In this document: positions 11,916-30,145 of the stretch, piece by piece
Numbering within the stretch: the first letter of the stretch is position 1
Layout of the letters: every line of letters starts with the position of its first letter
Made by a program: the position numbers and the translations under genes
Notes under the pieces: generated by a model
What the model was told of the DNA's origin: nothing
Seen by the model: only the letters and a program-made list of their open reading frames with translations
Databases searched by the model: none
NCBI GenBank assembly: GCA_009995545.1
Contig: JAACPI010000003.1
Coordinates: forward strand, 5,781 to 69,780
DNA: 64,000 nt
Source: a bacterium
GTDB lineage: Bacteria > Patescibacteriota > WWE3 > 2-01-FULL-39-13 > JAACPI01
Direction: 5' to 3'

Positions 11916-11917
11916 AA

Positions 11918-17220: not shown

Positions 17221-17298
17221 GGTGGCTGTAGCTCAATTGGTTAGAGCGCCGCTTTGTGGAAGCGGAGGCAGTGGGTTCAAATCCCATCAGCCACCCCA
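17221..17298 (+). tRNA. tRNA-His (anticodon GTG) with encoded G-1 and 3' CCA
   Basis: Hand-folded cloverleaf. Acceptor GTGGCTG/CAGCCAC, with an extra 5' G pairing the discriminator C, which is the His hallmark. D-stem GCTC/GAGC. Anticodon loop TTGTGGA. T-arm GTGGG-TTCAAAT-CCCAT. Confidence 0.85.
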
Positions 17299-17330
17299 CC
17301 TTAAAATCCTTTACCTAAGCCATCTGTAGT
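17274..17330 (+). repeat. att-like repeat copy 1: tRNA-His 3' half plus 32 nt of downstream flank
   Basis: Near-identical copies at 18716-18776 and 19813-19866. Confidence 0.7.
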
Positions 17331-17496
17331 GGTATAAAACACTACTGATAACTACTGCCACTTAGGCTAGTCTTTATTGCAGACAAGCACTTTTGTTCGG
17401 ATATCATCCTACAACAAAAGAGCACAGACATTTTCGCCCTCGAAGAAGGAGTCGCATTTTCACAGACACACAAGTATACAACTCTAGTCATTGAGC

Positions 17497-18648
17497 TTAA
17501 AGATTTTCCTTAATCCATAGATTTAGAGGATCCCTCTGTTTGATATAAGACTCTACAGTGATCGGGATAGGAATATTTGGCTTGAGTACATCTAGGTCTT
17601 GTCCAGGCAATAACTCAAAATACTTATACGAACACTGAACTTCAATTTTAGAGTTTGGCAGGACTATGTCCTTTCTATCACCAAATCTATTAGGCTTTTG
17701 TCCTGCATTTTCTCCAATTAGCACTGCGTTTTTATGTTGTTTCAAAAAAAGCGTATGATGCATGGCAGACGAAAATGTTTCTCTACCGATTGCTACATAC
17801 GTTGGAGTATTATCTGGGAAATTTTCGAAGGAGTCTTCCATAACACTAGTATCACCTCCGCCGTTAAGGCGTAAGTCTACAATAATGCTCTTTGCTTTAG
17901 AGGCTTCGAGAGAAAGAACTTTTTTAAACTTCTTCAGTTCATTCTCAGTGTGTCCTCTGTTGTTACAAGCATTGTACTGAAATACAAGGGTTTCTTCTTC
18001 CATGCGAAGCCTATACGTATTGTTTCCTGTGTAGGTGGGATTTTTAATGTAATCAGATTTCTTCCAAGTTAATGGTTTCAGTACAATTGCATTTTGAAAT
18101 TCTTCCTCAGTTCCTTTGTTAATTTCAAAACTCCCTTCAGACGTCTCTATATTTAATAAGTCTTTCTTGCTCACATCTATATATTTGAGAATATTGTTGG
18201 ATTGTAGATAGATCGAAACATCTCTAAACAGAACCTCTAAGTTCTCTTGTGAAGACAGCTTTGCTATTCTCTTGGTAAGTTCTTCAATCGAGATATCATT
18301 TATGCTTAAAAGTTTCTTTCCAAGAAAAGCTTTTTTGTTTTCTGTGATACCTACGATGTGGAGAATATCTCCTATAAATATGTATTTTATAGGAAATAGG
18401 GACCCTCCTATTCTAGTAACTTTTGTATGGGCGTCTCTCAATAACACTAAAGCTTCTTGAATAACGTACCTCATCTCCTCTTCAGTACAATCAAGAGTTT
18501 TGGACAATTCCTTTTCGAAGTCCTTTTTTTCAACATTTTTATAAGGATCACAATGTATTTGTTCTATCCCAGATACTAAGTATTTAATGTCTTCCTTCTT
18601 TTCCTTAGTAGTTAATTGGGTAGATTTTATGTTTTTGCTCATTTTCAA
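17497..18648 (-). CDS. S41-family (C-terminal processing/tail-specific protease-like) peptidase
   Basis: DLRLNGGGD and GRETFSSAMHH...NAVLIGE resemble the S41 DLRNNGGG and Ser-containing catalytic blocks. Confidence 0.55.
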   Translation of the reverse strand: MKMSKNIKSTQLTTKEKKEDIKYLVSGIEQIHCDPYKNVEKKDFEKELSKTLDCTEEEMRYVIQEALVLLRDAHTKVTRIGGSLFPIKYIFIGDILHIVGITENKKAFLGKKLLSINDISIEELTKRIAKLSSQENLEVLFRDVSIYLQSNNILKYIDVSKKDLLNIETSEGSFEINKGTEEEFQNAIVLKPLTWKKSDYIKNPTYTGNNTYRLRMEEETLVFQYNACNNRGHTENELKKFKKVLSLEASKAKSIIVDLRLNGGGDTSVMEDSFENFPDNTPTYVAIGRETFSSAMHHTLFLKQHKNAVLIGENAGQKPNRFGDRKDIVLPNSKIEVQCSYKYFELLPGQDLDVLKPNIPIPITVESYIKQRDPLNLWIKENL

Positions 18649-18715
18649 GTTATATCATAATAGTATCTATATTATACAATTACTCTTATCAAAATCTCTA
18701 TTTCACCAACTATTT

Positions 18716-18776
18716 GGTTCAAACCAAAAATCTATCAGCTACCCCACCTTAAAACCCTTTACCTAAGCCATTTGTA
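18716..18776 (+). repeat. att-like repeat copy 2 (degenerate tRNA-His 3' end plus flank)
   Basis: GGTTCAAACCAAAAATCTATCAGCTACCCCACCTTAAAACCCTTTACCTAAGCCATTTGTAG versus the tRNA's GGGTTCAAATCCCATCAGCCACCCCACCTTAAAATCCTTTACCTAAGCCATCTGTAG. Confidence 0.7.
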
Positions 18777-18914
18777 GGCGTCATAACATACCCCTATGAG
18801 ACTTACTTGAACTCCTAGACTTCCGAACCTAAAAATATTTTAAAATGAATATTACTGAAGCTTATTGGTTGTTATTAATTTTGTTATTTGAAATAAACTT
18901 GTTAAAATTTTCTT

Positions 18915-19760
18915 ATGGATATGAACTTACTTGAGGAAAAATTTAAAGGACTTCCAGATCATAAAAAAGTTGCTTTTAAAGCATTAAAATATTTAAGTGA
19001 GTCTCCAGATGTAATAGGATTGTACTTATCTGGATCTTTTGCAAAGGGTCTACCAGACATATATTCTGACTTAGATATAAATATACTAGTTGATCCCACA
19101 AAGCGAGAAAAGATAGTTAAAGAGCACCAAGAAAACCTAATTAAAAATGTAGGTAAGATAGCCACTTTATTTCCCGCAACTCACTTAGGTGACCCTAACC
19201 AAATAATCGTTTTTTATGAAGAAGGCGTACCAATTCACGTAGATTACCAATATAGAGTACTGGAAGATCTTTTACCCACTTCAAAAAATAAAGATGTATT
19301 AGTCTTATTTGACCCTGGAGGTGTCTTAACTGAGTGGAAAAGTAAGTGCTTAATTGCTAAACCTGAGACCCTACCGATTAACGATAAAATGCAATATTTT
19401 GAAGATAGATTTTGGGGTTGGTGCGCCTACACGGATGCAAAAATTGAAAGAGGTGAACTGTGGGAATCTAGAGACGCTCTTGAATACTTAAGATCTAATG
19501 TACTAGTTTCTTTGGCTTATTTTAAGCTCGGATTACCAAATGAAGGAAATAGGAGGCTAGAGTCTAAATTCCCTACCGATATACTTAATTCACTAACCAG
19601 TACTGTTCCTTTGGGCTTGGATAAAAATTCATATAAAGATGCTTTACTAAGTACGATTGAAGGCTACACAACTCTTTTCAGGGATGTCTCTAGCTTAAAC
19701 ACCACTAACAAAACCACCCTAGCGGATCGCGAATATTTTATCCGCTCGATCAAAAGCTAA
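18915..19760 (+). CDS. Nucleotidyltransferase-fold protein (ANT/aminoglycoside-lincosamide adenylyltransferase-like architecture)
   Basis: GS...D.D NTase motif (LSGSFAKGLPDIYSDLDINILVD) plus a C-terminal helical domain. 281 aa. Confidence 0.5.
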   Translation: MDMNLLEEKFKGLPDHKKVAFKALKYLSESPDVIGLYLSGSFAKGLPDIYSDLDINILVDPTKREKIVKEHQENLIKNVGKIATLFPATHLGDPNQIIVFYEEGVPIHVDYQYRVLEDLLPTSKNKDVLVLFDPGGVLTEWKSKCLIAKPETLPINDKMQYFEDRFWGWCAYTDAKIERGELWESRDALEYLRSNVLVSLAYFKLGLPNEGNRRLESKFPTDILNSLTSTVPLGLDKNSYKDALLSTIEGYTTLFRDVSSLNTTNKTTLADREYFIRSIKS

Positions 19761-19770
19761 TACACAGATT

Positions 19771-19866
19771 AGACAAACAAATACTCCTTCACAAACACTT
19801 TCGTTCGAGTATCGTTCAATTGCCGACCCCCACCTTTAAAACCCTTTACCTAAGCCATTTATACCG
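19771..19866 (+). repeat. Composite repeat R1/copy 3: AAACAAACAAATACTCCTTCACAAACACTTT block, pseudo-tRNA 3' half, then the tRNA downstream flank
   Basis: Left half matches 22901-22945. Right half matches 17296-17330 and 18741-18776. About 50 nt downstream of it also resemble the sequence after copy 2. Confidence 0.65.
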
Positions 19867-19933
19867 ATTGTAAAACACCCTGATGGGACGTTACTCGAAC
19901 TCATAGGATTGGAAATCAAAAATCACCCAGGTT

Positions 19934-21247
19934 CTAAGGGGTAAGTCTTTTAACTCCCCTATAGAGATAGGTCACTTCTCTCACATTTGGAATATCAAAT
20001 ATTTTCATTAACATTCTTGTAGGACCAAACCCAATTCCACCATGAGGAGGACAACCATACTTAAAAAAGTTTAAATAATGTTGTAAGGGCTCCAAGTGGA
20101 GACCTTTCTCTGTAGCTTGTTTTATTAAAACGTCATAACGGTGTTCTCGTTGCGCACCCGTTGTAATTTCAATACCGTTCCAAAGTAAGTCAAAACTTTT
20201 AGTTAATGTTGGATCCCCATCAACGCGCATATGATAAAAAGGTCTGACATCAATTGGGTATTCTGTAACAAACACAAACTCGTGCCCCTTTTCTTTCAAA
20301 ATATACTCAGATAATCTTCTTTCTTCTTCTGGACTTAAATCTCCGTCTTTTTCACTTGGAACATTAAGTTTCTTTAGTATCTTCTTAGCCTCAGACATAC
20401 TTACCTTAGGAAAAGGTGTGGTAGGAATTACTAATTTTCTACCATAAGATTTTTCAATCTCAGCCCCAAACTTTTGCTTAAGCTTCTCTATAACAAACCG
20501 TAGCATACGTTCCTCTTGCTCCATAACATCGTAGTGAGACTTTATAAATGAAATTTCAAAGTCGTAGCCTGTAAACTCAGTATCGTGCCTAGAAGTAAAG
20601 GAGGGATTAGCCCTAAACACCGGACCCACCTCAAATACCTTCTCAAAACCAGAGGCCATAGCCATTTGCTTATAAAACTGTGGGGATTGAGCCAAATAGG
20701 CAACTCTATCAAAGTATTTAACCTCGAATAGTTCAGCACCGGATTCACTAGGTGTGCTCATAAACTTAGGGGAGTGTATTTCCATAAACCCATCGTTTAC
20801 GAAAAACTCTCTCATGTATTGCTCCATCCAAGTCCACACTTTAAAAATAAGTGCTTTTTCAGGTTTCCTAAGGTCAATCCATCGCCAGTCTAATCTCGTG
20901 GGTTGCTCTGTTTCTGCATTACTTTTATCTATTATGGGAATTGGCAATTTTGGATCTGCTTTAGAAAGCACGGTTATGCTATCAATCTGAAGTTCCACCC
21001 CATTAGGGGCCTGTCTCTCCTCTTTTATAACCCCTATTACTTCTATTACAGACTCGTTAGCCAAGTCAGAAATTATTTTAAATGCCTCAGTCTTTTCTTC
21101 ACCGACTACTAATTGGGCAATACCAGTAATATCCCTTAGTAAAACGAATTTTATTCTCCCTTGGTCACGAATAGTGTGCACCCACCCCATCATAGTTACT
21201 TCCTCAGAGATTTTAGATTTTATATCTTGAACGTATACCCTTTTCAT
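19934..21247 (-). CDS. aspS: Aspartyl-tRNA synthetase, archaeal/eukaryotic type (no GAD insertion, 437 aa)
   Basis: N-terminal OB anticodon-binding domain. Class II motifs (FRANPSF, GGIGFGPTRM). The length is typical of the archaeal-type enzyme. Confidence 0.85.
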   Translation of the reverse strand: MKRVYVQDIKSKISEEVTMMGWVHTIRDQGRIKFVLLRDITGIAQLVVGEEKTEAFKIISDLANESVIEVIGVIKEERQAPNGVELQIDSITVLSKADPKLPIPIIDKSNAETEQPTRLDWRWIDLRKPEKALIFKVWTWMEQYMREFFVNDGFMEIHSPKFMSTPSESGAELFEVKYFDRVAYLAQSPQFYKQMAMASGFEKVFEVGPVFRANPSFTSRHDTEFTGYDFEISFIKSHYDVMEQEERMLRFVIEKLKQKFGAEIEKSYGRKLVIPTTPFPKVSMSEAKKILKKLNVPSEKDGDLSPEEERRLSEYILKEKGHEFVFVTEYPIDVRPFYHMRVDGDPTLTKSFDLLWNGIEITTGAQREHRYDVLIKQATEKGLHLEPLQHYLNFFKYGCPPHGGIGFGPTRMLMKIFDIPNVREVTYLYRGVKRLTP

Positions 21248-21600
21248 AAATCGTTTTCTTAATTACGTAGGGGTAAGTTTAAAAATACCCAAACGGAACA
21301 AAAAGCTAAAAAAGCTAAATTGATAATCCGTAAGGGCGTAGTAGAGTACTAACAGTACCTAATGTTACGCGGTGCCACCTCACTTTTTTCTAATGTTCTC
21401 ATTAGAAACTCTCACCTCAAACTAATAAGGTTTAACGCTGTAATGGGCGTTCCCATGGGGTTCTAATTTCGTAAAGATTTCTTCCCCAAGCTCATCGGTG
21501 TTTGCCGAATCATAGCTATATACGGTAATTATATACCTTTTGTCAAATTACTTCAAATAACCTCTCAAAGGATAGTAAACAAAAGAATGGAGCGAGAGAA
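21248..21600 (-). promoter_or_regulatory. Candidate T-box riboswitch leader of aspS
   Basis: The minus strand at 21383-21365 reads GTGAGGTGGCACCGCGTAA. This matches the T-box core AGGGUGGNACCGCG with N=C, which would pair a G73 discriminator. It lies ~120 nt upstream of the aspS ATG. A further 450-nt untranslated leader with raised GC follows. Confidence 0.4.
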
Positions 21601-21689
21601 CAGAACTGAAAAATACTGTTAAGACACAAATTAAGTAAAAATCATGTTAGCGTACTGTACAAAAAAGATACACCTTAACAAAAGCTTTA

Positions 21690-21760
21690 GTTCGAACAAC
21701 GTCCCATTGCCGACCCCATCATCCTATAGTATTTACAAATAACTCCTATTTTGATATAAT
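21690..21760 (+). promoter_or_regulatory. Repeat R2: pseudo-tRNA-His 3' half (GTTCGAACAACGTCCCATTGCCGACCCCA), CCTATAGTA, then promoter TTTACA(21732-21737)-N17-TATAAT(21755-21760)
   Basis: Near-consensus sigma70-type spacing. Orientation fits the downstream + genes at 21816 and 22068. Confidence 0.6.
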
Positions 21761-21815
21761 TACCCTAATATAGCAATCCGGCTATAAATTGGATTAAGAG
21801 TTTCAGGAGGGAAAT

Positions 21816-21998
21816 ATGCCGAATAGAGGTTGGTCGAAGAAGCGCTTGTTAAGTGCAGGGGCATTTCTAGCCACTTTGCTGATCTTCGCGATCCAGGCTG
21901 TAGTGGCAAAAAATGGAAGCCCCGATGACGTCGTGCTGGTCTCGGCCTTAATGGTGATCGTAACAGCCTATCTGGTGATTTTTGTACCAGGGAAATAA
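21816..21998 (+). CDS. Small membrane protein (60 aa, two TM helices)
   Basis: Strong SD (GGAGGGAAAT-ATG). Local GC ~50%. Downstream of the R2 promoter. Confidence 0.4.
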   Translation: MPNRGWSKKRLLSAGAFLATLLIFAIQAVVAKNGSPDDVVLVSALMVIVTAYLVIFVPGK

Positions 21999-22067
21999 GG
22001 CCAAGGATAGGGAAAAGTGAAGGGTACCTTACGGAACCTATAGGCAAAGCCTGTAGCCCTTCGATGG

Positions 22068-22862
22068 TTGGATAATCTAGAAAGGAGGTTTATCCTTCAA
22101 AAAAGATTGTTCAACCATTTCCGTGTAGTAAAAATCTTTTTAAAAATGCTTAAAAATTACACAAAACCATACTTACAGGAAATTGCCCATAATGTAATTG
22201 ACGAAGAAAAAGAATCCCGTACCGGTTACCAGGATATAGAAGTACAAGATGGTGAGCTATTTGACCCTTCATATGCTGAGTGGGAAATAGCAGAAAGTTG
22301 GGAGAGGCATTTGAAAATTTCTTTATCCACAAGGTTAGAAGAGGACAATATTGAAAATATACAAAAAACAGGAAAATTCCTGGCCACTTTCTTTGTAACA
22401 TTAGAAGAATTAAGAAAAAAATACAATTTTGAGAAAGCTATACCAGTAGGTGTTGTCTATAAATATACGGAAAAACGCAACCAAAAATTTATTATATTAG
22501 CAGACGAGGAATCTGGGACAATACACATATCATTTTTTGACTTAAACAGGCTACTAACAAAACCTCCCACCAAAGTACAAGCAGAAGGAACAACTTACAG
22601 TGGTACTTTAGAAGACTTTGCAAAGTTGTGCGCCGCAGAAGAGTTTTACCATATTGCTCACCCAGAATACGAGCAAAATATACTAGGTAATGTAAGCGCT
22701 GGTGTAAATTTGGTAGACTATGATGCACAAGAGGCTGAGTTTAACGCACTCCTTTTTCAACTCCACAATGCAATAGAATGGGATATGCCAGAACATACAG
22801 TAGAAAATATACGACAAAGGATTAATAGAGCTAAAAAAATTAGAGACAATCGGATTAAATAA
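22068..22862 (+). CDS. Hypothetical protein, paralog of 27172-27903. The ORF-track start is TTG, so the true start is uncertain.
   Basis: Shares FLATFFVTLEELRKKYNF...ILADEESGTIHISFF and VDYDAQEAEF...LLFQLHNAIEW blocks with the 27172 ORF. Confidence 0.45.
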   Translation: MDNLERRFILQKRLFNHFRVVKIFLKMLKNYTKPYLQEIAHNVIDEEKESRTGYQDIEVQDGELFDPSYAEWEIAESWERHLKISLSTRLEEDNIENIQKTGKFLATFFVTLEELRKKYNFEKAIPVGVVYKYTEKRNQKFIILADEESGTIHISFFDLNRLLTKPPTKVQAEGTTYSGTLEDFAKLCAAEEFYHIAHPEYEQNILGNVSAGVNLVDYDAQEAEFNALLFQLHNAIEWDMPEHTVENIRQRINRAKKIRDNRIK

Positions 22863-22885
22863 CCTCTTTTACAGATTTATGGGAC

Positions 22886-23004
22886 ATTAAATCCCCCACT
22901 CTAAACAAACAAATACTCCTTCACAAACACTTTGGTTCTAGTATCGTCCCATTGCCGACCCCATTATCCCATAGTATTTACAGGTATACCCTTTTATCGT
23001 ATAA
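22886..23004 (+). promoter_or_regulatory. Repeat R3, the full composite: ATTAAATCCCCCACT, AAACAAACAAATACTCCTTCACAAACACTTT, pseudo-tRNA 3' half, then TTTACA(22976-22981)-N17-TATAAT(22999-23004)
   Basis: Same architecture as R2, R4 and R5. Left parts recur at 19771-19812 and 29731-29765. Confidence 0.6.
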
Positions 23005-23060
23005 TTATTGTGTAACTGAATTTCGAGTTACATAGTCGTTTTAGCACGAGGAGAGAAGAA

Positions 23061-23435
23061 ATGAAAAGGTTAAACCTGATGTTTTTTTTCCTAGTCTTGG
23101 CAAGCCTCCTATTACAAGGCTGTGCCAGCTTCGGCAATACGAAGGTGAAAGATGCAGTCGTTAGGGACTGGATATTTTCAGTCGAAACACGAGTAAACGG
23201 GGTGACTACCGTTTGGCTCAGGAACGATGACACCGGGGTCTACTGCTTCACTAATGATATCGCTACTGCGAAGCAGCTAGAAGACCTCATGAAGTCGGAT
23301 CGAATGGTCACATTCCGGTACGGTGATGTAAAGTTTTTCAATAACAATCCGTGCTCTGGAGCAGAAGTAAGTGTCGATGGGAGTGGTTTCCACACCTTTG
23401 TTGTCACCCAAATCGTAGGGGACTTAAAGGAGTAA
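23061..23435 (+). CDS. Small lipoprotein (lipobox LLLQGC)
   Basis: MKRLNLMFFFLVLASLLLQGCASF. Higher GC than the host. SD GGAGAG. Confidence 0.5.
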   Translation: MKRLNLMFFFLVLASLLLQGCASFGNTKVKDAVVRDWIFSVETRVNGVTTVWLRNDDTGVYCFTNDIATAKQLEDLMKSDRMVTFRYGDVKFFNNNPCSGAEVSVDGSGFHTFVVTQIVGDLKE

Positions 23436-23565
23436 CTTAGATGAGCGGTAAGGACCGGCGGAAGATCCAACATGGATCGCCACGGAATATCTGACAAAAG
23501 TCAGACGCACATATAACATCCTTACAGTAGTACAATTTTTAGAACACTACCCTCTCCCTAACGAA

Positions 23566-24180: not shown

Positions 24181-24216
24181 ATGCTTATTTTAACACCAGA
24201 GGAGTGTAACAGGCTA

Positions 24217-24296
24217 AACAAACATTTTCGTTCGAATATCACTCCATTAACGTCCCACCCTATAGTATTTACACCGAACCTCATTTGACATATAAT
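24217..24296 (+). promoter_or_regulatory. Repeat R4: TTCGTTCGAATATC...CGTCCCACCCTATAGTA, then TTTACA(24268-24273)-N17-TATAAT(24291-24296)
   Basis: Same promoter module. Faces the + gene at 24387. Confidence 0.55.
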
Positions 24297-24386
24297 ATAT
24301 GTATTTAGTGGCAATTCGATGCACTAATCAGAACATTCAAAACCTGTTACTTAATAATTGATTTTCTAGCATATAGGAGAAGAGAG

Positions 24387-25619
24387 ATGTCAGATCGAAG
24401 ACTTGGCGCATGGGACTGTGAGTATTGTAGTCGCACCAAAATCTGGGGAAATGTATATACATGTCCAGGATGTGGTAACCCAAGGAGCAAGGGAGTGAGG
24501 TTCTACCTACCCTCTGATGCCCCTTTGGTGACACCGGAGATTGCAGAACAATTGGGGTCCGGAGATCCTAACTGGTATTGCGAACATTGTAATTCCGGAA
24601 ACACAGACACCAGAGATATTTGCTGGAACTGTGGAGCTCCGAAGGGATCTTCTCCCGTACATGAAACAAAAAATTTCATGGAAGGACAGACCCCCCGAAG
24701 TACTGCACAGGCTCGAGCAGCAGATCCAGATGGACGGTCTTGGGTGGCAAAAAGTGATAGAAACGGCCGAACCACTACAACTTCACCTTCAAGAGAACCT
24801 AATAAGCCTGAGCAATATAGTTGGGCTTCTCTAGTGAGTTCTCCGAAGACGTTCACTAATCAGGCTAAATCCATAATAAGCTCGGGGAAAAATCCAGCTT
24901 ACTTAGGGGCAGCTCTAGGGGTTTTGGGAGCAATTCTGATAGCATTTCTAAGCTACAACCTGTTCTTTAAACCCCACGAGGAAACTGCTATAGTTAGCTC
25001 GTTCCAGTGGGAACAGAGCGTGGTTTTACAGCAGTTTTCCACCGTTCGCGAAACAGCATGGACAAGTACACCCTCAGGGGCGTACAACATCCAATCTGAC
25101 TACAGGGATACTGGCCGCGATCTAAAAGTCCACGACGGATGGGAGACAGTCAGTTACTCGGACACTTGTTACCGTAGCGAAAGCTACACCGACACGTGCA
25201 CCAGGTCTGTCTACAACTCCCGGACGTGTACAGGGAATCGCGACAATGGAGACGGATCCTTCAGCAGTTATACCTATGACTGCGGGAGCAGCGGTACGGA
25301 GACATACTCGTGTAGTAAAACGAGAAGTGTCCCATATAGCTGCACCAAGACCCGTCAAGAAGAGTTGTACCATTATGAGGACATATGGGACAACTGGCAC
25401 GAGTTCGACATTGATAAGTGGACCCATGTGACAACGTATCCCACACGGGGTAATAATCACAGACCCCACTTTCAAGAGGTAAATCTCCAAAACCCCTACT
25501 TGGGTGGGAACCCGATACTTGGTCAGCAGAAGCTGATTCAGATCCCGGGAAGCTATTCCATAACCTTTGCGTGCGAAAACAAAAAATCACTCGGCTCGTT
25601 CTTAAACCAAAATTTTTAA
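24387..25619 (+). CDS. Membrane protein with two N-terminal cytoplasmic CxxC...CxxC zinc ribbons, one TM helix, and a Ser/Thr/Tyr/Cys-rich extracytoplasmic domain
   Basis: CEYCSRTKIWGNVYTCPGCGNP and YCEHCNSGNTDTRDICWNCGAP. TM helix AYLGAALGVLGAILIAFLSY. GC ~48%. Several antisense ORFs are artefacts of that GC. Confidence 0.5.
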   Translation: MSDRRLGAWDCEYCSRTKIWGNVYTCPGCGNPRSKGVRFYLPSDAPLVTPEIAEQLGSGDPNWYCEHCNSGNTDTRDICWNCGAPKGSSPVHETKNFMEGQTPRSTAQARAADPDGRSWVAKSDRNGRTTTTSPSREPNKPEQYSWASLVSSPKTFTNQAKSIISSGKNPAYLGAALGVLGAILIAFLSYNLFFKPHEETAIVSSFQWEQSVVLQQFSTVRETAWTSTPSGAYNIQSDYRDTGRDLKVHDGWETVSYSDTCYRSESYTDTCTRSVYNSRTCTGNRDNGDGSFSSYTYDCGSSGTETYSCSKTRSVPYSCTKTRQEELYHYEDIWDNWHEFDIDKWTHVTTYPTRGNNHRPHFQEVNLQNPYLGGNPILGQQKLIQIPGSYSITFACENKKSLGSFLNQNF

Positions 25620-25683
25620 ACAAACAAACTCTAACAAATACTTTTAAATAGTAAATTTCTGAAGTATTTTAAATACATGAACC

Positions 25684-25998
25684 TTGGTGATTTTATTTCC
25701 TTTGCAAGTCTGGGGGGGGGGCGAAATTGGTTTTGATGGTTTAACGGTATCAACAAATTTTGGAGAAATAATGTTATACTCCGGGTATGCCCACAGTGAT
25801 AAATGCAACAGGGTTTTTTGTAATTTCGCAGACACAAACGAGCAGATAGAGTGTGTCTACAACACTAGCGGGGAATTACTAATTTTTAAAAAAGACGACA
25901 AAGTATTATTTCAATTAGAGACAGGTATAGAAACTGATCCGGCAATCGAACTCAGAAGTAGCAATAATTGGTCTCTCGGGGCTTATTGGACCAGGTAA
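25684..25998 (+). CDS. Possible small protein (104 aa) whose 5' end contains the G10 tract. The start may instead be the internal Met, after the tract.
   Basis: ORF has protein-like composition. No homology recognised. Confidence 0.25.
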   Translation: MVILFPLQVWGGGEIGFDGLTVSTNFGEIMLYSGYAHSDKCNRVFCNFADTNEQIECVYNTSGELLIFKKDDKVLFQLETGIETDPAIELRSSNNWSLGAYWTR

Positions 25999-26006
25999 TT
26001 ATAGGC

Positions 26007-27065
26007 CTATCTGGCATATATTGAATTAAACTCTTGAATCAGAGAAATATTTGAAAGGTAGTTTTTATACATGTCCACGTAGGTATCTTCATAAATAAGA
26101 TCGCGGTTTCCATAGCCAAATGTTTGATCAACTTTGTATTTCCCGTCTCCCATAGAATCGTACTGATACTCATATGCAGGGGTGCCAAAACTTCCTAGGT
26201 CAACCCATCTTTTTCTAATTCCTAGTACGGTAACTTCGCTGTCATTGTCAATGCCACCTACCCAGGTACGTTTATCAGAATCAGTTAAAAATAAATAAGA
26301 ATATTTACTATTAACTGATTTAAAAACTCTTGCTGTAGTTTTTCCATAAATGGCGGCTTCAAACTGCCATGTTAATGTTAAATTTTTAAAGTTGGGTTTA
26401 TCACTTTGCTCTATATAAATATCTTCGGGTGGAAGTAATTCTTCTTTTTTAGACGAGTACATCTTGCCTATTATTTTTAAGGGCTCCTCAACTATAAGTT
26501 CTGTATATGTTTTATCTGTGGCACTTTCCATAGCGGTACCATAGAACACTTCAATTCCTGAGATTTTATCTTCAATTTTAAGGGTGGTTTTAATTTGCGT
26601 TGAAATAAAATACTGAAGCTCTAGAGGAAGCATTATACTCCACTCACTATAACCTTTGTCATTCCACTTAGGCTGTTCATTACCTTCCTCATCCACTCTA
26701 TATTTATAAGCTCTAAGCAAACGATACAAACCTTGAGATTTGCTTTGGAAAAAAGAAGATACTAAATACCTTCCCTTATAATCTTTAATGTAAGCAATTA
26801 ATCTTGGAACTTCGTTGTTTGCAATTTTAAATTTGTCGGATAAATAAATCTTTCTATCCCCTACTGTTACCTGGTATTTAGGAAAAAGTTTGTGATTAAT
26901 TAAATCTTGTGCAGTAAGATCTTTACCATTAAAGGGGCGGGCGTGAAAATAAGACTTTTCTAAAGCATCTTTAAACATTACTACATTATATAACAGGAAA
27001 TAATAAATACCTTTAGTAGACATCTGATTAGAGTCCCCCCCCCCTTCTACTAAGACAGACCTCAT
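26007..27065 (-). CDS. Hypothetical protein with a G9 tract (on the minus strand) in codons 8-10 (GGG). Alternative start MSTKG lies downstream of the tract.
   Basis: 352-aa ORF. C9 at 27036-27044 on the plus strand. Confidence 0.4.
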   Translation of the reverse strand: MRSVLVEGGGDSNQMSTKGIYYFLLYNVVMFKDALEKSYFHARPFNGKDLTAQDLINHKLFPKYQVTVGDRKIYLSDKFKIANNEVPRLIAYIKDYKGRYLVSSFFQSKSQGLYRLLRAYKYRVDEEGNEQPKWNDKGYSEWSIMLPLELQYFISTQIKTTLKIEDKISGIEVFYGTAMESATDKTYTELIVEEPLKIIGKMYSSKKEELLPPEDIYIEQSDKPNFKNLTLTWQFEAAIYGKTTARVFKSVNSKYSYLFLTDSDKRTWVGGIDNDSEVTVLGIRKRWVDLGSFGTPAYEYQYDSMGDGKYKVDQTFGYGNRDLIYEDTYVDMYKNYLSNISLIQEFNSIYAR

Positions 27066-27070
27066 AGACC

Positions 27071-27115
27071 CTATAACCCTATAGTATTTACAAGTAACCT
27101 ATTCTAGGGTATATT
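27071..27115 (+). promoter_or_regulatory. Repeat R5: CCCTATAACCCTATAGTA, then TTTACA(27087-27092)-N17-TATATT(27110-27115)
   Basis: Same promoter module. Faces 27172. Confidence 0.55.
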
Positions 27116-27171
27116 TATTGTAACTAAAATCCGAATTATAAATCCTTGGTATCAATAAACTTTTAAAAATA

Positions 27172-27903
27172 ATGAATCCGCAAATACCAAAAGAAGAACC
27201 TACCGTTTCCGAGGCACAAATTCCAGATAGCGGCTTTGAGATGGAAATAACAGATAGGGATCTTATCAACGTGTCAGACCCTAGCTGGAAAGACACCCAA
27301 ATGTGGGTGAATCAACTTAGTATGTCTATGGAATCTCGCAATTTGGAATACTCAGAAGACGAAATTCTAGTTGCGGCAAGATACTTAGCTACATTTTCGC
27401 AGACACTAGAGGAACTAAGGGGGAGGTTTAACTATCCAAATGTAATACCTATAAACATTGTTTATAGGTACCAGGAGAAAAACAACCGAGCCTTTATGAT
27501 CCTTGCGGATTCAAAATCAAGAACAGTACATATCTCCATCATTGCTTTGATGAAGTTTTTTAGAGGATTGTCTAGTATAGAAGAAGATTTTTTTTACTAC
27601 AAACTGGGAGACACAATAGCATTTAATGGCACTTTAATGAATTTTGCGAGGCTTAATGCAGTCGAAGAATTCGACCACGTGACGAATTCTGCAGGCAGAT
27701 CAAATAGCCTTTGGTTGGTTAATGAGGATAACCCAATAGTCGAATATGATGCGCAAGATGTTGAGCACAGCGGGCTGTTATTACAGCTACAGTTAGCTGT
27801 TGAGTGGAAAATGCCCTGGACAACTATAAACCCACTGGGCGACAGGTTACACAACGCTATAGAGTTAAGAAGAAGTAGAAGGAGTAGTACTGTTAAAAAA
27901 TAA
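27172..27903 (+). CDS. Hypothetical protein, paralog of 22068-22862
   Basis: Aligned blocks YLATFSQTLEELRGRFNY...ILADSKSRTVHISII and VEYDAQDVEH...LLLQLQLAVEW. Confidence 0.45.
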   Translation: MNPQIPKEEPTVSEAQIPDSGFEMEITDRDLINVSDPSWKDTQMWVNQLSMSMESRNLEYSEDEILVAARYLATFSQTLEELRGRFNYPNVIPINIVYRYQEKNNRAFMILADSKSRTVHISIIALMKFFRGLSSIEEDFFYYKLGDTIAFNGTLMNFARLNAVEEFDHVTNSAGRSNSLWLVNEDNPIVEYDAQDVEHSGLLLQLQLAVEWKMPWTTINPLGDRLHNAIELRRSRRSSTVKK

Positions 27904-27941
27904 GTATCTAACTATAATCAATATATACCCTCAATAAATCA

Positions 27942-28832
27942 GTGGGTTGTAATTTTGCTATAAAAACACTGCTAATGGATGAAGTAAGAACAATTTCCCC
28001 AGATATTGTTGGATATACTATATCAGAGGCAGGCATACTACCCCCCAAAGTTGAAACCTCAATAAGAGAAAGTATAGGTGAAACCGTGGACACCCTTTTA
28101 AGTGAATTTAAGGGATCTACTCCAAGAACTCTGGCCACTCGAGAAGAATTAATAAAGGGTATAGATCAAAGGCTGGTTTTTGTCGATGAAGAAGACATTC
28201 CAACCATAGCATCGGCTTTTTTCGATACTAATCCAGACGATAATAAAGCTAGCGCTTTTTTTAAAATCGACGGAGAAGGCCCTATTGCAGTAGGAGTACC
28301 CTCTAAAGAGAAAGCACAAAAAATATATAATAACCTAGATGATGAAAGTAAAAAACAAGTTAATACATTTATTTTAGGTTCAAATTTTTCAAGGGTGGAG
28401 GGAGTGAGATATTTAATTTTGGCCCAGAATTTAACTCACGAACTAGTCCATGTTTTACAAAATTTTAAAGAAGTTAATGTAAACAAACCAGAGGAACTGG
28501 CTTTTGTTGAAACTGCAGTAAGATACTATACAATGCGGATTTTTGAAAAAAATAACATACCGTATATAACAAACAAAGTCGACCTAACAGCATTTAAAGA
28601 ATACAGTTCAATTCTACGAGAGTTTGATGAACAGACTCTAAAAGATATTTTATTGGGTAATAAACCAAAAATTAGTCATAGTACAAGCTTTTTTAGCCCC
28701 GGTGCAGAAAGATTTGCAAATTACACCCGTGTAAAAATTAGGTTACTATCCAGTTTTGTTCCTAACAGAATTAAATACATTTTTGATAATGGTCTTAACC
28801 CCAATCTGACAACCCAGATACCCAACTTTTAA
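27942..28832 (+). CDS. Hypothetical protein with an HExxH (HELVH) zincin-like motif, a putative metallopeptidase
   Basis: NLTHELVHVLQ at ~aa 175. No other support. Confidence 0.35.
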   Translation: MGCNFAIKTLLMDEVRTISPDIVGYTISEAGILPPKVETSIRESIGETVDTLLSEFKGSTPRTLATREELIKGIDQRLVFVDEEDIPTIASAFFDTNPDDNKASAFFKIDGEGPIAVGVPSKEKAQKIYNNLDDESKKQVNTFILGSNFSRVEGVRYLILAQNLTHELVHVLQNFKEVNVNKPEELAFVETAVRYYTMRIFEKNNIPYITNKVDLTAFKEYSSILREFDEQTLKDILLGNKPKISHSTSFFSPGAERFANYTRVKIRLLSSFVPNRIKYIFDNGLNPNLTTQIPNF

Positions 28833-28859
28833 AACTACCCAACCAATACGAAAAATAAA

Positions 28860-29720
28860 CTAAGATAAATCTAAACTTAACTTACCTAAAACTCCACGTA
28901 CAGAAGATTTAGCCTCGAACAATTCTTTAAGTTCCTCTAGCATAAATGTTTTGTTTTTTGCTCCGCCCTGCTTGATTAAAAAATTATAGGTGTAGTAATA
29001 AAGTAGCTGAAAAATTATCTCTTTAGTATACTCTTGACTATAATTATCGTTTAAAATTTTAAAGTAGTATTTATTTAAATCTAAGTATTTATTATTAAAA
29101 TTTTCAGAGGTTATAAAGCCTCCTAAAATACTAAATCTTAATAGGGGCTCAAAAATTAAACTTTTACTGCTTTTATTAAACTTGAAATTATTTATAACCT
29201 CCGCATCAAAAAATAAGATACTAATCCTTAAAGGTAACCTGCCATTAGCCGGTAACTCCTTTACAAAATTCTCTATCAACAACACAACTCTTAGATAATT
29301 CTGGGTACTTAAAATTACTTCGATATCTATGTCACTAAGTTTTTCTCTATCAGACTGATATAACTGTGCCTCCGTAGCTGAAATTAATTTTTTGCAGTCA
29401 AACGGTGAATTATTTAAATTACTACAGAATGACCCTACTACCCTTGCACAGTCAACACAGTCTTCTATCAACAAAAAAAGTTTTTCTAATAATACCAATG
29501 CGGCATTGTTTGTATCGCTGTATACAGAATTATCTAAATTAGAAAATATTGTAGGAAGTAAAATCTTATCATTTCTAAAGAATAAGAGGTTATCAAAACC
29601 TCTAGGAAAATACTCTATTAGTGGAGTCCTATTTATAAAATCTGTTATTCTTTCTTCTATATTTTGGTATTCTGTATTTTTAGCCATAACAAATAAGTAG
29701 AGTAATTCATTTTCATACAT
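28860..29720 (-). CDS. Hypothetical protein
   Basis: 286-aa ORF. Confidence 0.35.
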   Translation of the reverse strand: MYENELLYLFVMAKNTEYQNIEERITDFINRTPLIEYFPRGFDNLLFFRNDKILLPTIFSNLDNSVYSDTNNAALVLLEKLFLLIEDCVDCARVVGSFCSNLNNSPFDCKKLISATEAQLYQSDREKLSDIDIEVILSTQNYLRVVLLIENFVKELPANGRLPLRISILFFDAEVINNFKFNKSSKSLIFEPLLRFSILGGFITSENFNNKYLDLNKYYFKILNDNYSQEYTKEIIFQLLYYYTYNFLIKQGGAKNKTFMLEELKELFEAKSSVRGVLGKLSLDLS

Positions 29721-29752
29721 TAAAAATCGCGATTAAATCCCCCACTTTAGCG

Positions 29753-30145
29753 TTAAACAAAATAAAGAGAATAAGTATAAACTTCAGAATAAACCTGACT
29801 TTCCTGAAAACAAAATTCATATCCTACGGATTCCAAAGTTTTAATAAATCTTTGTGCATCTGGTGTTGTGGGCTGAAATTCTAGCAACAACGGACCCTCT
29901 TCTCTTACGTAGAATTCAATTTGCTCAATTAAATGTTCAAACAACCTAGTACCGTTTGAAGGGGCATAAATAAAGGATAATTCTGCAATATAGCCTTGAA
30001 GTGAGGGGTCTAGAGGCTTCCAGAACTCAACGTTATAGTAAAAGCCGGTTTCTTCTTCAGAATATTTTAATTGTTCAGGTAATGACTTCATTAAAAAAAT
30101 ATAACACACTGCAACCTTTAGATGGTTACACAAATCATAAACCAA
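29753..30145 (-). CDS. Hypothetical small protein
   Basis: 130-aa ORF. A left-part repeat motif (ATTAAATCCCCCACT...AAACAAA) sits in the 32-nt gap before it. Confidence 0.35.
   Translation of the reverse strand: MVYDLCNHLKVAVCYIFLMKSLPEQLKYSEEETGFYYNVEFWKPLDPSLQGYIAELSFIYAPSNGTRLFEHLIEQIEFYVREEGPLLLEFQPTTPDAQRFIKTLESVGYEFCFQESQVYSEVYTYSLYFV

What the first reader, a model, noticed from the sequence alone, without database searches (positions are those of the whole stretch)
17221..29770. tRNA-His-anchored mosaic of cassette-like segments, each bounded by a decayed copy of the tRNA-His 3' half
Seen in sequence. At least seven segment boundaries (17.30, 18.73, 19.82, 21.70, 22.95, 24.25 and 27.08 kb, with a partial motif at 29.74 kb) carry a composite repeat. 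Its parts are, in order:
- ATTAAATCCCCCACT (sometimes present);
- AAACAAACAAATACTCCTTCACAAACACTTT;
- a 25-30 nt element resembling the T-arm/acceptor 3' half of the adjacent tRNA-His, for example GTTCGAACAACGTCCCATTGCCGACCCCA against the tRNA's GGTTCAAATCCCATCAGCCACCCCA;
- then either the tRNA downstream flank (CCTTAAAAYCCTTTACCTAAGCCATYTGTA) or CCTATAGTA plus a promoter.

Several enclosed genes are ~45-50% GC in a ~32% GC genome. They are an S41 peptidase, two NTase-fold proteins, an M23 peptidase, a lipoprotein, a Zn-ribbon membrane protein and two paralogs of an unknown family. Inference: serial site-specific insertions at tRNA-His have left stacked att scars. Alternatively, a novel cassette-capture hotspot uses a tRNA-derived recombination site. 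No integrase is present in the window, which is atypical for tRNA-targeting islands. Core gene aspS sits inside the array, which suggests insertions on both sides of an ancestral tRNA-His/aspS junction.
Basis: partly seen in the sequence, partly recalled or inferred. Interest (0 to 1): 0.8.

Follow-up and report, generated by a model that had tools for sequence, protein, structure and literature searches.

The report
tRNA-His-anchored array of mini-islands
Next to the histidine tRNA gene of an uncultured groundwater bacterium lies a 10-kb row of one- or two-gene segments, each separated by the same composite repeat; it most likely records repeated site-specific insertions at the tRNA's 3' end, a known kind of genomic island in an unusually miniature, integrase-less form.

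Summary
The repeat is real. Seven co-oriented boundaries (17.30-27.08 kb) are linked by significant pairwise similarity. They are built from three modules: a ~30-nt left arm, a ~30-nt core ending in ACCCCA, and one of two right arms. One right arm is the tRNA-His trailer; the other is CCTATAGTA plus a near-consensus promoter. Modules switch exactly at ACCCCA, the tRNA's 3' terminus. No copy occurs elsewhere in about 90 kb of this contig.

The tRNA likeness of the core is solid only at 18.73 kb, marginal at 21.70 and 22.95 kb, and otherwise inferred from position. The 29.74-kb motif is not supported. Only three genes are GC-rich.

Best reading (about 0.5): a fixed tandem array of small integrase-less units, made by site-specific recombination at the tRNA-His 3' end. 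This resembles Dehalococcoides ssrA islands, cis-mobilizable elements and tycheposon islands.

There is no evidence of present mobility. Twenty-two assemblies give the same gene order, and 14 aligned contigs are 99.9% identical. The window holds no recombinase; a serine recombinase abuts tRNA-Gln 5.7 kb outside it. The embedded aspS keeps the T-box leader also found upstream of aspS in the two nearest relatives. It is not an integron. Moderately interesting: a new variant of a known kind.

The parts
17222..17298 (+). tRNA-His(GTG) with encoded CCA. It anchors the array. Its 3' terminus ACCCCA (17293-17298) is the sequence at which modules switch at every boundary.
   Evidence: ARAGORN; Rfam tRNA 69.8 bits.
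17299..17368 (+). B0 right arm type I, the tRNA trailer CCTTAAAATCCTTTACCTAAGCCATCTGTAG..., with a promoter-like TTTACC-N17-TATAAA.
   Evidence: BLAST to B1 (93% over 44 nt) and B2 (82% over 51 nt); profile hit E 1.6e-23.
17382..17410 (+). Extra decayed left-arm/core copy (GACAAGCACTTTTGTTCGGATATCATCC), 85 nt after the tRNA. It looks like an 'empty' unit.
   Evidence: nhmmer with the B2-B5 profile, E 0.007; 21 of 28 bases identical to B5 by eye.
17497..18648 (-). Segment 1 cargo: S41-like peptidase, 383 aa, GC3 0.33.
   Evidence: Pfam PF03572 partial match, E 3.6e-8; composition.
18695..18821 (+). B1. Weak left arm 18695-18715. Core 18716-18746 (GGTTCAAACCAAAAATCTATCAGCTACCCCA), which is the tRNA 3' half with a 6-nt insertion. 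Right arm I 18747-18821.
   Evidence: (score 23; 0 of 10,703 background windows).
18915..19760 (+). Segment 2 cargo: nucleotidyltransferase, 281 aa, GC3 0.29.
   Evidence: Pfam PF01909. Same neighbours on all 22 contigs that carry it.
19770..19910 (+). B2, the hybrid boundary. Left arm 19770-19801. Core 19802-19832. Right arm I 19833-19910, which holds an inverted core-like copy at 19883-19902 (minus strand GAGTTCGAGTAACGTCCCATCAGGG).
   Evidence: 92% to B4, 80% to B1; inverted copy, E 0.01-0.02.
19934..21556 (-). Segment 3. aspS (non-discriminating AspRS, 437 aa) at 19934-21247. T-box leader at 21329-21522. Promoter-like site at 21528-21556.
   Evidence: Pfam. T-box 55 bits, E 5.8e-10, below the Rfam gathering score. 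T-box also found upstream of aspS in sister genomes L097 and L100. Promoter.
21659..21790 (+). B3. Left arm 21659-21689. Core 21690-21718. Right arm II with CCTATAGTA plus TTTACA (21732-21737)-N17-TATAAT (21755-21760).
   Evidence: (11 of 12 promoter positions).
21816..22862 (+). Segment 4 cargo. A 60-aa membrane peptide at 21816-21998 (GC3 0.56, looks foreign). A 238-aa protein of a rare unknown family at 22146-22862.
22886..23035 (+). B4. ATTAAATCCCCCACT at 22886-22900. Left arm 22902-22933. Core 22934-22963. Right arm II with promoter hexamers at 22977-22982 and 23000-23005.
23061..24180 (.). Segment 5 cargo. Lipoprotein, 124 aa, at 23061-23435 (+), GC3 0.55. M23 peptidase, 204 aa, at 23566-24180 (-), GC3 0.24.
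   Evidence: Lipobox LLQGC read in the translation; Pfam PF01551.
24214..24326 (+). B5. Shortened left arm 24214-24229. Core 24230-24257 (ends GTCCCA). Right arm II with promoter hexamers at 24268-24273 and 24291-24296.
24387..27065 (.). Segment 6 cargo. Zn-ribbon membrane protein, 410 aa, at 24387-25619 (+), GC3 0.49. A weak left-arm-like stretch at 25620-25655, not significant. A 104-aa ORF at 25684-25998 (+). A 352-aa ORF at 26007-27065 (-).
   Evidence: Zn-ribbon homologs (56% identity or less) are found in other CPR bacteria; the two loci examined (44-45% GC) are ordinary chromosomal contexts without the repeats.
27067..27143 (+). B6. Only the last bases of the core remain (GACCCTA). Right arm II with promoter TTTACA (27087-27092)-N17-TATATT (27110-27115).
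   Evidence: (85% to B3, 74% to B4).
27172..29720 (.). Segment 7; its distal end is undefined. A 243-aa paralog of the 238-aa protein at 27172-27903 (+). A 296-aa HExxH protein at 27942-28832 (+). A 286-aa ORF at 28860-29720 (-).
29732..29746 (+). Doubtful 'B7': a single exact 15-mer, ATTAAATCCCCCACT, shared with 22886-22900.
   Evidence: 6 of 100 shuffles give at least 2 matches at up to 2 mismatches. No profile hit.

Best explanation
The locus is a fixed tandem array of very small, integrase-less integrated units (1.1-2.8 kb, one to three genes each). Each unit resembles a cis-mobilizable element.

Proposed origin (inferred): repeated site-specific recombination at the 3' end of tRNA-His.
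- Each incoming circular unit carried an attP-like site. That site was a ~30-nt element arm (AAACAAACAAATACTCCTTCACAAACACTTT), then a ~30-nt mimic of the tRNA 3' half ending in ACCCCA, then a right arm.
- The crossover was at or next to ACCCCA.
- This leaves the tRNA intact. The unit's right arm, which in four units is a strong inward-facing promoter, ends up next to the tRNA. The arm plus core ends up at the far end.
- Later units pushed earlier ones outward.

The recombinase acted in trans and is not in the window. The units now appear immobile in the sampled population.

Shown: the repeat anatomy, its restriction to this locus within the ~90 kb that could be examined, the switch point at ACCCCA, the foreign composition of three promoter-proximal genes, and the absence of a recombinase in the window.

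Inferred: the recombination mechanism, the circular intermediates, and the order of events.
For: 1. All boundary copies are co-oriented with the tRNA. They lie only on its 3' side, within 9.9 kb. Apart from two weak copies inside the locus, none occurs elsewhere in the 64-kb window or in 26 further kb of the contig.
2. B1 repeats the tRNA 3' half plus 36 nt of trailer at 93% identity. That is the classical attL/attR signature.
3. Upstream of the tRNA-like core, every copy carries a conserved arm that does not align with the tRNA body. Dehalococcoides ssrA islands show the same thing, and there it marks the crossover point (PMC3146451).
4. The modules recombine. Left arm+core is joined to the type I right arm in B2 and to the type II right arm in B3-B5. 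The switch always falls at (G/C/T)ACCC(C/T)A, which matches the tRNA's last six bases (sequence).
5. The arms are 68-92% identical, whereas the paralogous genes next to B3 and B6 are only 34% identical in protein. The arms were therefore constrained or acquired separately, not co-duplicated with the genes.
6. The three GC-rich patches (GC3 0.49-0.56) each start just downstream of a type II promoter arm. The two Zn-ribbon homolog loci examined are from CPR genomes of 44-45% GC.
7. The type II arms are the three best sigma-70-like sites of the region.
8. Precedents exist. Serial integration pushes older elements inward and leaves partial tRNAs in tycheposon islands (bioRxiv 10.1101/2020.12.28.424599). 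Some tandem ssrA islands lack integrases and were read as possible cis-mobilizable elements (PMC3146451).
Against: - No recombinase lies in the array or the window.
- No presence/absence polymorphism exists among 14 aligned population contigs, and the NTase cargo has no alternative context on 22 contigs.
- No copy of any module was found in viral contigs or in 2.3 Mb of other fetched loci.
- The tRNA likeness of the B2-B5 cores is statistically weak.
- Similarity does not decay with distance from the tRNA: B2-B4 is more similar than B2-B3 or B3-B4.
- aspS with the T-box leader also seen in sister genomes sits between B2 and B3. Integration at a single attB does not predict that.
- Most cargo has native-like composition.
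- Only about 90 kb of the genome could be examined.
Confidence: 0.5

Rival explanations
1. Active cassette platform. The boundaries are working recombination sites, functionally like integron attC/attI. A recombinase encoded elsewhere in the genome uses them to capture, shuffle and excise promoter-bearing single-gene cassettes next to tRNA-His. New cassettes can enter at any boundary, not only at the tRNA.
For: - The units have a regular small size (1087-1887 bp for the first five) and hold intact ORFs without pseudogene debris.
- The arms are highly conserved despite very different cargo, including an identical 27-mer in B2 and B4.
- Insertion at internal boundaries would explain the lack of a decay gradient. 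It would also explain boundaries on both sides of aspS.
- Strong promoters sit at the proximal end of four units.
- A large serine recombinase is present on the same contig, at tRNA-Gln.
Against: - No polymorphism at all was seen in 14 aligned contigs, or in the neighbours of the NTase on 22 contigs.
- No recombinase is adjacent to the array.
- The boundaries have no conserved hairpin or dyad symmetry.
- No second array or free cassette was found in the collections searched.
- The tRNA-Gln recombinase site shares only the generic T-loop with the cores.
Confidence: 0.15
2. Regulatory module, not a recombination scar. The conserved ~130-nt block (upstream arm, core, CCTATAGTA, promoter) is a shared cis-regulatory region for a co-regulated set of envelope or secreted proteins. 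It was spread locally by duplication and kept similar by selection or gene conversion. The likeness to the tRNA end is limited to the two copies nearest the tRNA.
For: - The type II arms are near-consensus promoters that face intact genes.
- CCTATAGTA directly abuts the -35 element in all four copies.
- The arms are better conserved than neutral DNA should be.
- The tRNA similarity of B2-B6 is weak.
- The array is fixed in the population.
Against: - This does not explain three copies of the tRNA 3' end plus trailer (B0-B2).
- It does not explain the hybrid boundary B2, which joins the 'regulatory' arm+core to the tRNA trailer instead of a good promoter.
- It does not explain the strict co-orientation with the tRNA.
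- At B1, B3 and B5 the arm+core lies behind the start of a minus-strand gene, and at B2 and B4 behind the stop of a plus-strand gene, so its position relative to genes is inconsistent.
- Three of the driven genes are compositionally foreign.
Confidence: 0.15
3. Small non-autonomous mobile repeat. In this view the boundary block itself is the mobile unit, a MITE- or Correia-like element carrying an outward promoter. It inserted repeatedly into intergenic spacers between resident genes near tRNA-His.
For: - aspS, with the T-box leader also present in sister genomes, and several genes of native composition lie between boundaries.
- The boundary blocks are short (110-150 nt) and carry a promoter.
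Against: - No terminal inverted repeats or target-site duplications were seen (sequence).
- All copies share one orientation and lie within 10 kb; none is found elsewhere in about 90 kb.
- The copies are mosaics of three modules rather than one element with fixed ends.
Confidence: 0.08

Closest known systems
Dehalococcoides ssrA genomic islands (McMurdie et al. 2011, PMC3146451)
   Same: - Tandem islands lie downstream of a small stable-RNA gene.
- Each island is bounded by a direct repeat of the gene's 3' end.
- A conserved motif just upstream of each repeat does not align with the RNA gene.
- Many units lack an integration module and were read as possible cis-mobilizable elements.
- Core-like, fixed gene regions lie close to the repeats.
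   Different: - There the target is tmRNA, and many islands carry a ~540-aa serine recombinase next to attL.
- The repeat there is a clean 20-bp copy, and the array varies between strains.
- Here the target is tRNA-His, no unit has a recombinase, and the units are only 1-3 kb.
- Here the tRNA-like core is strongly diverged, and no strain variation is seen.
Cis-mobilizable elements and tandem accretion (ICESt1/ICESt3 of Streptococcus thermophilus; Pavlovic et al. 2004, as cited in PMC3146451; review PMC5704250 listed, not read)
   Same: - Integrase-less segments are delimited by att-type repeats.
- They are stacked in direct orientation at one attachment site by successive site-specific integrations.
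   Different: - Known cases sit beside a functional ICE or IME that supplies the integrase, and they have been shown to excise.
- Here no helper is adjacent, and mobility is untested.
Tycheposon-seeded genomic islands of Prochlorococcus (Hackl et al., bioRxiv 10.1101/2020.12.28.424599)
   Same: - tRNA-anchored islands occur in a small, streamlined, low-GC genome.
- Serial integrations push older elements inward.
- Partial tRNAs are scattered through the island as remnants.
   Different: - Tycheposons are multi-gene elements with tyrosine recombinase and replication modules, and none of those is present here.
- The host phylum is different (CPR/Patescibacteria).
- The units here are far smaller, and their ends are conserved.
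Integron cassette arrays
   Same: The array consists of short, mostly single-gene units separated by a recurring recombination-site-like element at one chromosomal platform.
   Different: - There is no intI gene.
- The boundaries do not fold into attC-like hairpins.
- Units carry their own promoters and have genes on both strands.
- The platform here is a tRNA gene.

Membership tests
tRNA-targeting integrative element / genomic island | An intact target tRNA gene at one end of the island | tested here: met
   tRNA-His at 17222-17298; ARAGORN and Rfam 69.8 bits.
tRNA-targeting integrative element / genomic island | A direct repeat of the tRNA 3' segment at the distal end (attR) | tested here: met
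   B1: tRNA 3' end plus trailer, 44 nt at 93% identity, E 2e-12; local score above all 10,703 background windows. For B2-B5 the tRNA likeness is marginal or not significant.
tRNA-targeting integrative element / genomic island | A tyrosine or serine integrase gene inside the element, next to an att site | tested here: not met
   No recombinase domain in any called gene of the window. Unknown ORFs have no PDB, NCBIfam, PHROG or PADLOC recombinase match. The only recombinase seen is at tRNA-Gln, 5.7 kb outside the window.
tRNA-targeting integrative element / genomic island | Presence/absence polymorphism or excision products | tested here: not met
   14 contigs are collinear at 99.9% identity, with only SNPs and homopolymer length changes. 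The NTase cargo sits in the same context on 22 contigs. Read-level data could not be examined.
Cis-mobilizable element array (tandem accretion) | Integrase-less segments flanked by att-type repeats in direct orientation | tested here: met
   Seven co-oriented boundaries delimit six segments without a recombinase.
Cis-mobilizable element array (tandem accretion) | A helper element with a cognate integrase in the same array or genome, and demonstrated mobilization | not testable with these tools
   Only about 90 kb of the genome is accessible. No helper lies in the array. Mobilization would need experiments or read-level analysis.
Integron | An intI integrase with attI and a Pc promoter at the head of the array | tested here: not met
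   No tyrosine recombinase in the window.
Integron | attC sites: imperfect palindromes that fold as single-strand hairpins | tested here: not met
   No consensus structure in left arm+core (0 pairs). Single-strand DNA folds of five of the six boundary regions (including all type II boundaries) are no better than shuffles (z from -1.1 to +0.2); only the tRNA-proximal region 17270-17375 folds better (z -2.7).
Integron | Promoterless, co-oriented cassettes | tested here: not met
   Four units begin with 10-11/12 sigma-70 promoter matches. Genes lie on both strands.
Tycheposon | Hallmark integration and replication modules (tyrosine recombinase, primase/helicase) | tested here: not met
   None among the array proteins.
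MITE-like / dispersed intergenic repeat | Terminal inverted repeats, target duplications, and dispersed copies in both orientations | tested here: not met
   No inverted termini. All copies lie in one 10-kb stretch and one orientation, except for one short inverted core copy inside boundary B2. None is found elsewhere in about 90 kb.

The most novel reading that the evidence does not exclude
A tRNA-anchored, integron-like gene-capture platform in a CPR bacterium. In this reading, promoter-bearing mini-cassettes are inserted, shuffled and perhaps excised at sites derived from the 3' end of tRNA-His. The shared crossover core would be ACCCCA. The recombinase would be encoded elsewhere in the genome, possibly the large serine recombinase at tRNA-Gln. 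This would give an ultra-small genome a compact way to try out foreign genes.
Probability: 0.15. Interest if true: 0.8.

Novelty: new variant of a known kind. Interest (0 to 1): 0.45.

Why it matters
CPR/Patescibacteria have tiny genomes, and their mechanisms of gene gain are poorly known.

If the array was built by site-specific recombination, it shows that tRNA-seeded island accretion operates in this group. That process is known from Dehalococcoides, streptococci and Prochlorococcus. Here it would operate at the scale of single genes, with each unit bringing its own strong promoter.

If the sites are still active, the locus would be a new kind of cassette platform. It would also supply a defined ~60-nt site and a candidate recombinase for testing.

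If the array is only a fossil, it is still a clear example of how accessory envelope genes (peptidases, a lipoprotein, a Zn-ribbon membrane protein) pile up next to a tRNA gene and come to surround a housekeeping gene.

Tried and rejected
1. Sister-genome comparison.
   - The genome-contig scan with AspRS found nothing closer than 63% identity.
   - The protein database gave relatives at 77-78% identity. Their aspS loci (L097, L100) have no tRNA-His, no repeats and no shared neighbours. Synteny is therefore uninformative.
None relates to the window beyond the tRNA.
   - As a rough background, 9 of the 119 have a second full or partial (up to 3 mismatches) copy of the tRNA's last 17 nt nearby, on either strand. 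None has an array.
3. Viral-contig scans for the core, the tRNA 3' end, the left arm and the trailer gave zero hits.
4. Boundary profiles searched against 2.3 Mb of other fetched loci gave no hits.
5. RNA element or terminator idea. There is no Rfam family at the boundaries, no consensus structure, folds of five of six boundary regions no better than shuffles, and no intrinsic terminators at boundaries. Rejected.
6. Integron idea. Rejected; see the membership test.
7. Cargo as phage or defence genes. Only the M23 peptidase matches PHROGs, through the generic peptidase domain. There are no PADLOC hits.
8. Cargo mobility through homologs. Zn-ribbon homologs (56% identity or less) sit in ordinary chromosomal contexts of other CPR genomes, without the repeats. 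The 238/243-aa family has only 87 distant relatives among 1.84 billion representatives and none in the word-indexed search.
9. Hidden recombinase among the unknown ORFs. No PDB or NCBIfam match was found.
10. Structure prediction of the 238-aa protein was too poor to search with (pLDDT 54).
11. Extra boundary candidates at 25620-25655 and 26990-27066 align by eye but are not significant in profile searches.

Full report
**Source and setting.** The window comes from an uncultured CPR/Patescibacteria bacterium of the Paceibacteria/Nomurabacteria type. Its AspRS is 77% identical to a 'Candidatus Nomurabacteria' protein. The same contig was assembled in more than 20 metagenome samples. The window is 34.7% GC. 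Its only tRNA gene is tRNA-His(GTG) at 17222-17298 on the + strand, with the CCA encoded.

**The observation.** Reading the sequence and a sensitive self-BLAST of 16.8-30.3 kb confirm seven boundaries, all on the + strand. I call them B0 (17.30 kb), B1 (18.73), B2 (19.82), B3 (21.70), B4 (22.95), B5 (24.25) and B6 (27.08). They are built from three modules:
- **Left arm**, about 30 nt: AAACAAACAAATACTCCTTCACAAACACTTT. It is exact in B2 and B4, diverged in B3 and B5, and faint in B1.
- **Core**, about 30 nt: it begins GTTC and ends ACCCCA. It is present in B1-B5; only the last bases remain in B6.
- **Right arm**, of two types. Type I is the tRNA trailer CCTTAAAAYCCTTTACCTAAGCCAT..., found in B0, B1 and B2. 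Type II is CCTATAGTA followed by TTTACA-N17-TATAAT, found in B3-B6.

Pairwise support:

| Pair | Length (nt) | Identity | E-value |
|---|---|---|---|
| B0-B1 | 44 | 93% | 2e-12 |
| B1-B2 | 79 | 80% | 7e-12 |
| B2-B4 | 61 | 92% | 7e-19 |
| B3-B4 | 104 | 79% | 2e-18 |
| B4-B6 | 74 | 74% | 2e-6 |

Exact-motif counts exceed all or nearly all shuffles. Profile HMMs of each module find no further significant copy in the 64-kb window. There are two exceptions. One is a decayed left-arm/core copy at 17382-17410 (E 0.007). The other is an inverted core copy at 19883-19902 (E 0.01-0.02). No copy lies in the 26 kb of the same contig outside the window. Fourteen contigs from different samples and assemblers are collinear at 99.9% identity, so the structure is not an assembly artefact.

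- *tRNA likeness of the core.* It is significant on its own only for B1 (local score 23, above all 10,703 background windows). It is marginal for B3 and B4 (p about 0.005) and not significant for B2, B5 and B6. A profile of the B2-B5 cores does not retrieve the tRNA. Homology to the tRNA end rests on three things: position, because B2's core sits exactly where the tRNA 3' half sits relative to the shared trailer; the common terminal ACCCCA; and the inverted copy at 19883-19902, which carries the tRNA-identical TCCCATCAG.
- *The 29.74-kb motif.* It is one exact 15-mer and cannot be told from chance.
- *GC content.* Only three genes are GC-rich: the 60-aa peptide, the 124-aa lipoprotein and the 410-aa Zn-ribbon protein (46-49% GC, GC3 0.49-0.56). 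The S41-like peptidase, NTase, M23 peptidase and the larger unknown ORFs have native-like GC3 of 0.24-0.33.
- *The two NTases.* They are unrelated beyond the fold, and the second lies outside the supported array.

**Anatomy that bears on mechanism.**
1. *Module switch point.* The modules switch partners at one fixed point. B2 follows B4 up to GACCCC and follows B1 from ACCCCACC. All seven boundaries read (G/C/T)ACCC(C/T)A at the switch, which matches the last six bases of the tRNA.
2. *Non-tRNA arm.* The arm upstream of the core does not align with the tRNA body. The same feature is seen beside the ssrA repeats of Dehalococcoides islands, where it was used to place the crossover (PMC3146451).
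3. *Promoters.* The type II right arms are the three best sigma-70-like sites of the 13.5-kb region (11 of 12 positions; B6 has 10 of 12). Each faces an intact gene.
4. *Foreign patches.* The three GC-rich patches (21.80-22.06, 23.06-23.56 and 24.40-25.60 kb) each begin just downstream of one of these promoters. The Zn-ribbon protein has homologs (56% identity or less) in other CPR bacteria. In the two loci examined (44-45% GC) they lie in ordinary chromosomal contexts without the repeats. This is consistent with lateral acquisition.
5. *Arm conservation.* The arms are 68-92% identical. The 238-aa and 243-aa paralogs that follow B3 and B6 are only 34% identical in protein. The arms therefore did not simply co-duplicate with the genes and drift.
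6. *No structure.* The left arm+core has no conserved secondary structure. Single-strand folds of five of the six boundary regions are no better than shuffles. Rfam finds nothing there. An RNA element, a terminator or an attC-like hairpin is therefore unlikely.

**Evidence against ongoing mobility, and complications.**
- No called gene in the window has a recombinase domain. The unknown ORFs give no recombinase match in NCBIfam, PDB sequences, PHROGs or PADLOC.
- The population shows only SNPs and homopolymer length changes, with no unit gain or loss. The NTase cargo has the same neighbours on all 22 contigs that carry it.
- None of the modules occurs in viral contigs or in 2.3 Mb of other loci.
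- Similarity does not fall with distance from the tRNA. The non-adjacent B2 and B4 are the closest pair.
- aspS lies between B2 and B3 with a T-box leader (55 bits, E 5.8e-10). The two nearest relatives also have a T-box upstream of aspS. The gene looks like the lineage's own housekeeping gene, although acquisition from a related Paceibacteria lineage cannot be excluded. Integration at a single attB does not put boundaries on both sides of a resident gene.
- The nearest sister genomes (AspRS 77-78% identical) share no neighbours with this locus, so they cannot show which segments are variable.

**Most likely explanation (confidence about 0.5).** The array was built by repeated site-specific recombination at the 3' end of tRNA-His.
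- The incoming units were small and lacked an integrase. Their attP-like site was left arm + tRNA-mimicking core | right arm, with the crossover at or next to ACCCCA.
- This keeps the tRNA intact. It places each unit's right arm (a promoter in the type II units) proximally and its arm+core distally. It also explains why the cores need never have been functional tRNA halves; they carry a 5-6-nt insertion relative to the tRNA.
- The recombinase acted in trans.
- The array is now fixed.
- The aspS segment may have been trapped by use of a secondary site or an internal boundary. Alternatively it may have arrived on a unit and replaced the original copy.
- These steps are inferred. What is shown is the repeat anatomy, the switch point, the locus restriction, the promoters, the foreign patches and the lack of a recombinase.

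**Rival explanations.**
- *An active integron-like capture platform (0.15).* It would explain the conserved arms and the absence of a decay gradient. It has no positive evidence of activity.
- *A shared regulatory module spread by duplication or gene conversion (0.15).* It explains the promoters, but not the three copies of the tRNA end plus trailer, nor the hybrid B2.
- *A MITE-like promoter-bearing repeat (0.08).* It has no inverted termini, a single orientation apart from one short inverted core copy inside B2, and no dispersed copies in about 90 kb.

**Comparison with known systems.** The closest are the tandem ssrA islands of Dehalococcoides, including their integrase-less members (PMC3146451). 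Next come cis-mobilizable elements formed by accretion in streptococci (cited there). Third are tycheposon-seeded islands with scattered partial tRNAs (bioRxiv 10.1101/2020.12.28.424599). Partial tRNA genes as att remnants are common (PMC9897764). The locus fails the integron tests: there is no intI, no attC-like hairpin, and the units have their own promoters. It lacks the integrase required to file any unit as an autonomous integrative element. I rate it a new variant of a known kind. It is a miniature, promoter-bearing, integrase-less version of a tRNA-seeded island, in a CPR genome.

**Limits.**
- Only about 90 kb of the genome could be read.
- No genome at 80-95% relatedness exists in the collections searched.
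- Read-level data were not available.

Noticed in passing
window 27035-27044 and 25712-25721: Two 10-nt homopolymer tracts vary in length among population contigs. The poly-C tract at 27035-27044 has 8-11 C. It lies in codons 8-10 of the 352-aa ORF 26007-27065 (-), and gene calls come out at 323, 329, 338 or 352 aa. The poly-G tract at 25712-25721 gains 2 G in two contigs and lies at the 5' end of the 104-aa ORF. These are candidate phase-variable loci in a CPR genome, although assembly error in homopolymers is not excluded.
   Followed up: partly
L095 18475-20380 (about 5.7-7.6 kb left of window position 1, same contig): The last 14 nt of tRNA-Gln(TTG) overlap the 3' end of a 558-aa large serine recombinase gene on the opposite strand (Pfam Resolvase; weak XisF-like match over residues 15-494). 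A 55-aa ORF follows. Several assemblies break inside this gene. It looks like a separate integrated element at tRNA-Gln. It is arranged like DsiB next to ssrA in Dehalococcoides. No repeat of the tRNA-Gln end lies within the 3.3 kb available.
   Followed up: partly
window 21329-21522 (-); L097 9694-9876; L100 9700-9880: A T-box leader lies upstream of aspS in this genome (55 bits) and in two Paceibacteria relatives (32 and 41 bits). All three fall below Rfam's gathering score of 93, so CPR T-boxes of this type would be missed by standard annotation.
   Followed up: partly
window 19883-19902 (-) and 18795-18815 (-): An inverted copy of the core (GAGTTCGAGTAACGTCCCATCAGGG) lies about 55 nt downstream of the direct core in boundary B2. 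A weaker homologous stretch is seen in B1. It can pair with the direct core in a single strand, but the fold is no better than shuffles. Its role is unexplained.
   Followed up: partly
window 17382-17410 (+): A decayed left-arm/core copy lies only 85 nt after the tRNA-His gene and before any cargo gene. It looks like an empty unit or a solo scar.
   Followed up: partly
window 16089-16727 (-): A GNAT acetyltransferase gene lies about 0.5 kb upstream of tRNA-His, on the 5' side and outside the array. It is also compositionally foreign (47% GC, GC3 0.46).
   Followed up: no
window 22146-22862 and 27172-27903: The two paralogs (34% identity) belong to a very rare family. Only 87 distant relatives were found among 1.84 billion representative proteins, and these mostly share a C-terminal domain of about 90 aa. 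The structure prediction was poor (pLDDT 54) and the function is unknown.
   Followed up: partly
window 9888-13915 (+); L097 16296-20407: A tandem pair of ~670-aa genes of unknown function is present here (one has a faint CLIPPER_2 match). A tandem pair of 675-aa genes lies near aspS in the 78% sister genome; whether the two pairs are homologous was not tested.
   Followed up: no
L107 and L147 (unrelated ~59% GC metagenome contigs): Two complete tRNA-His genes lie 1167 nt apart in another organism, so tandem tRNA-His duplication also occurs in nature.
   Followed up: no
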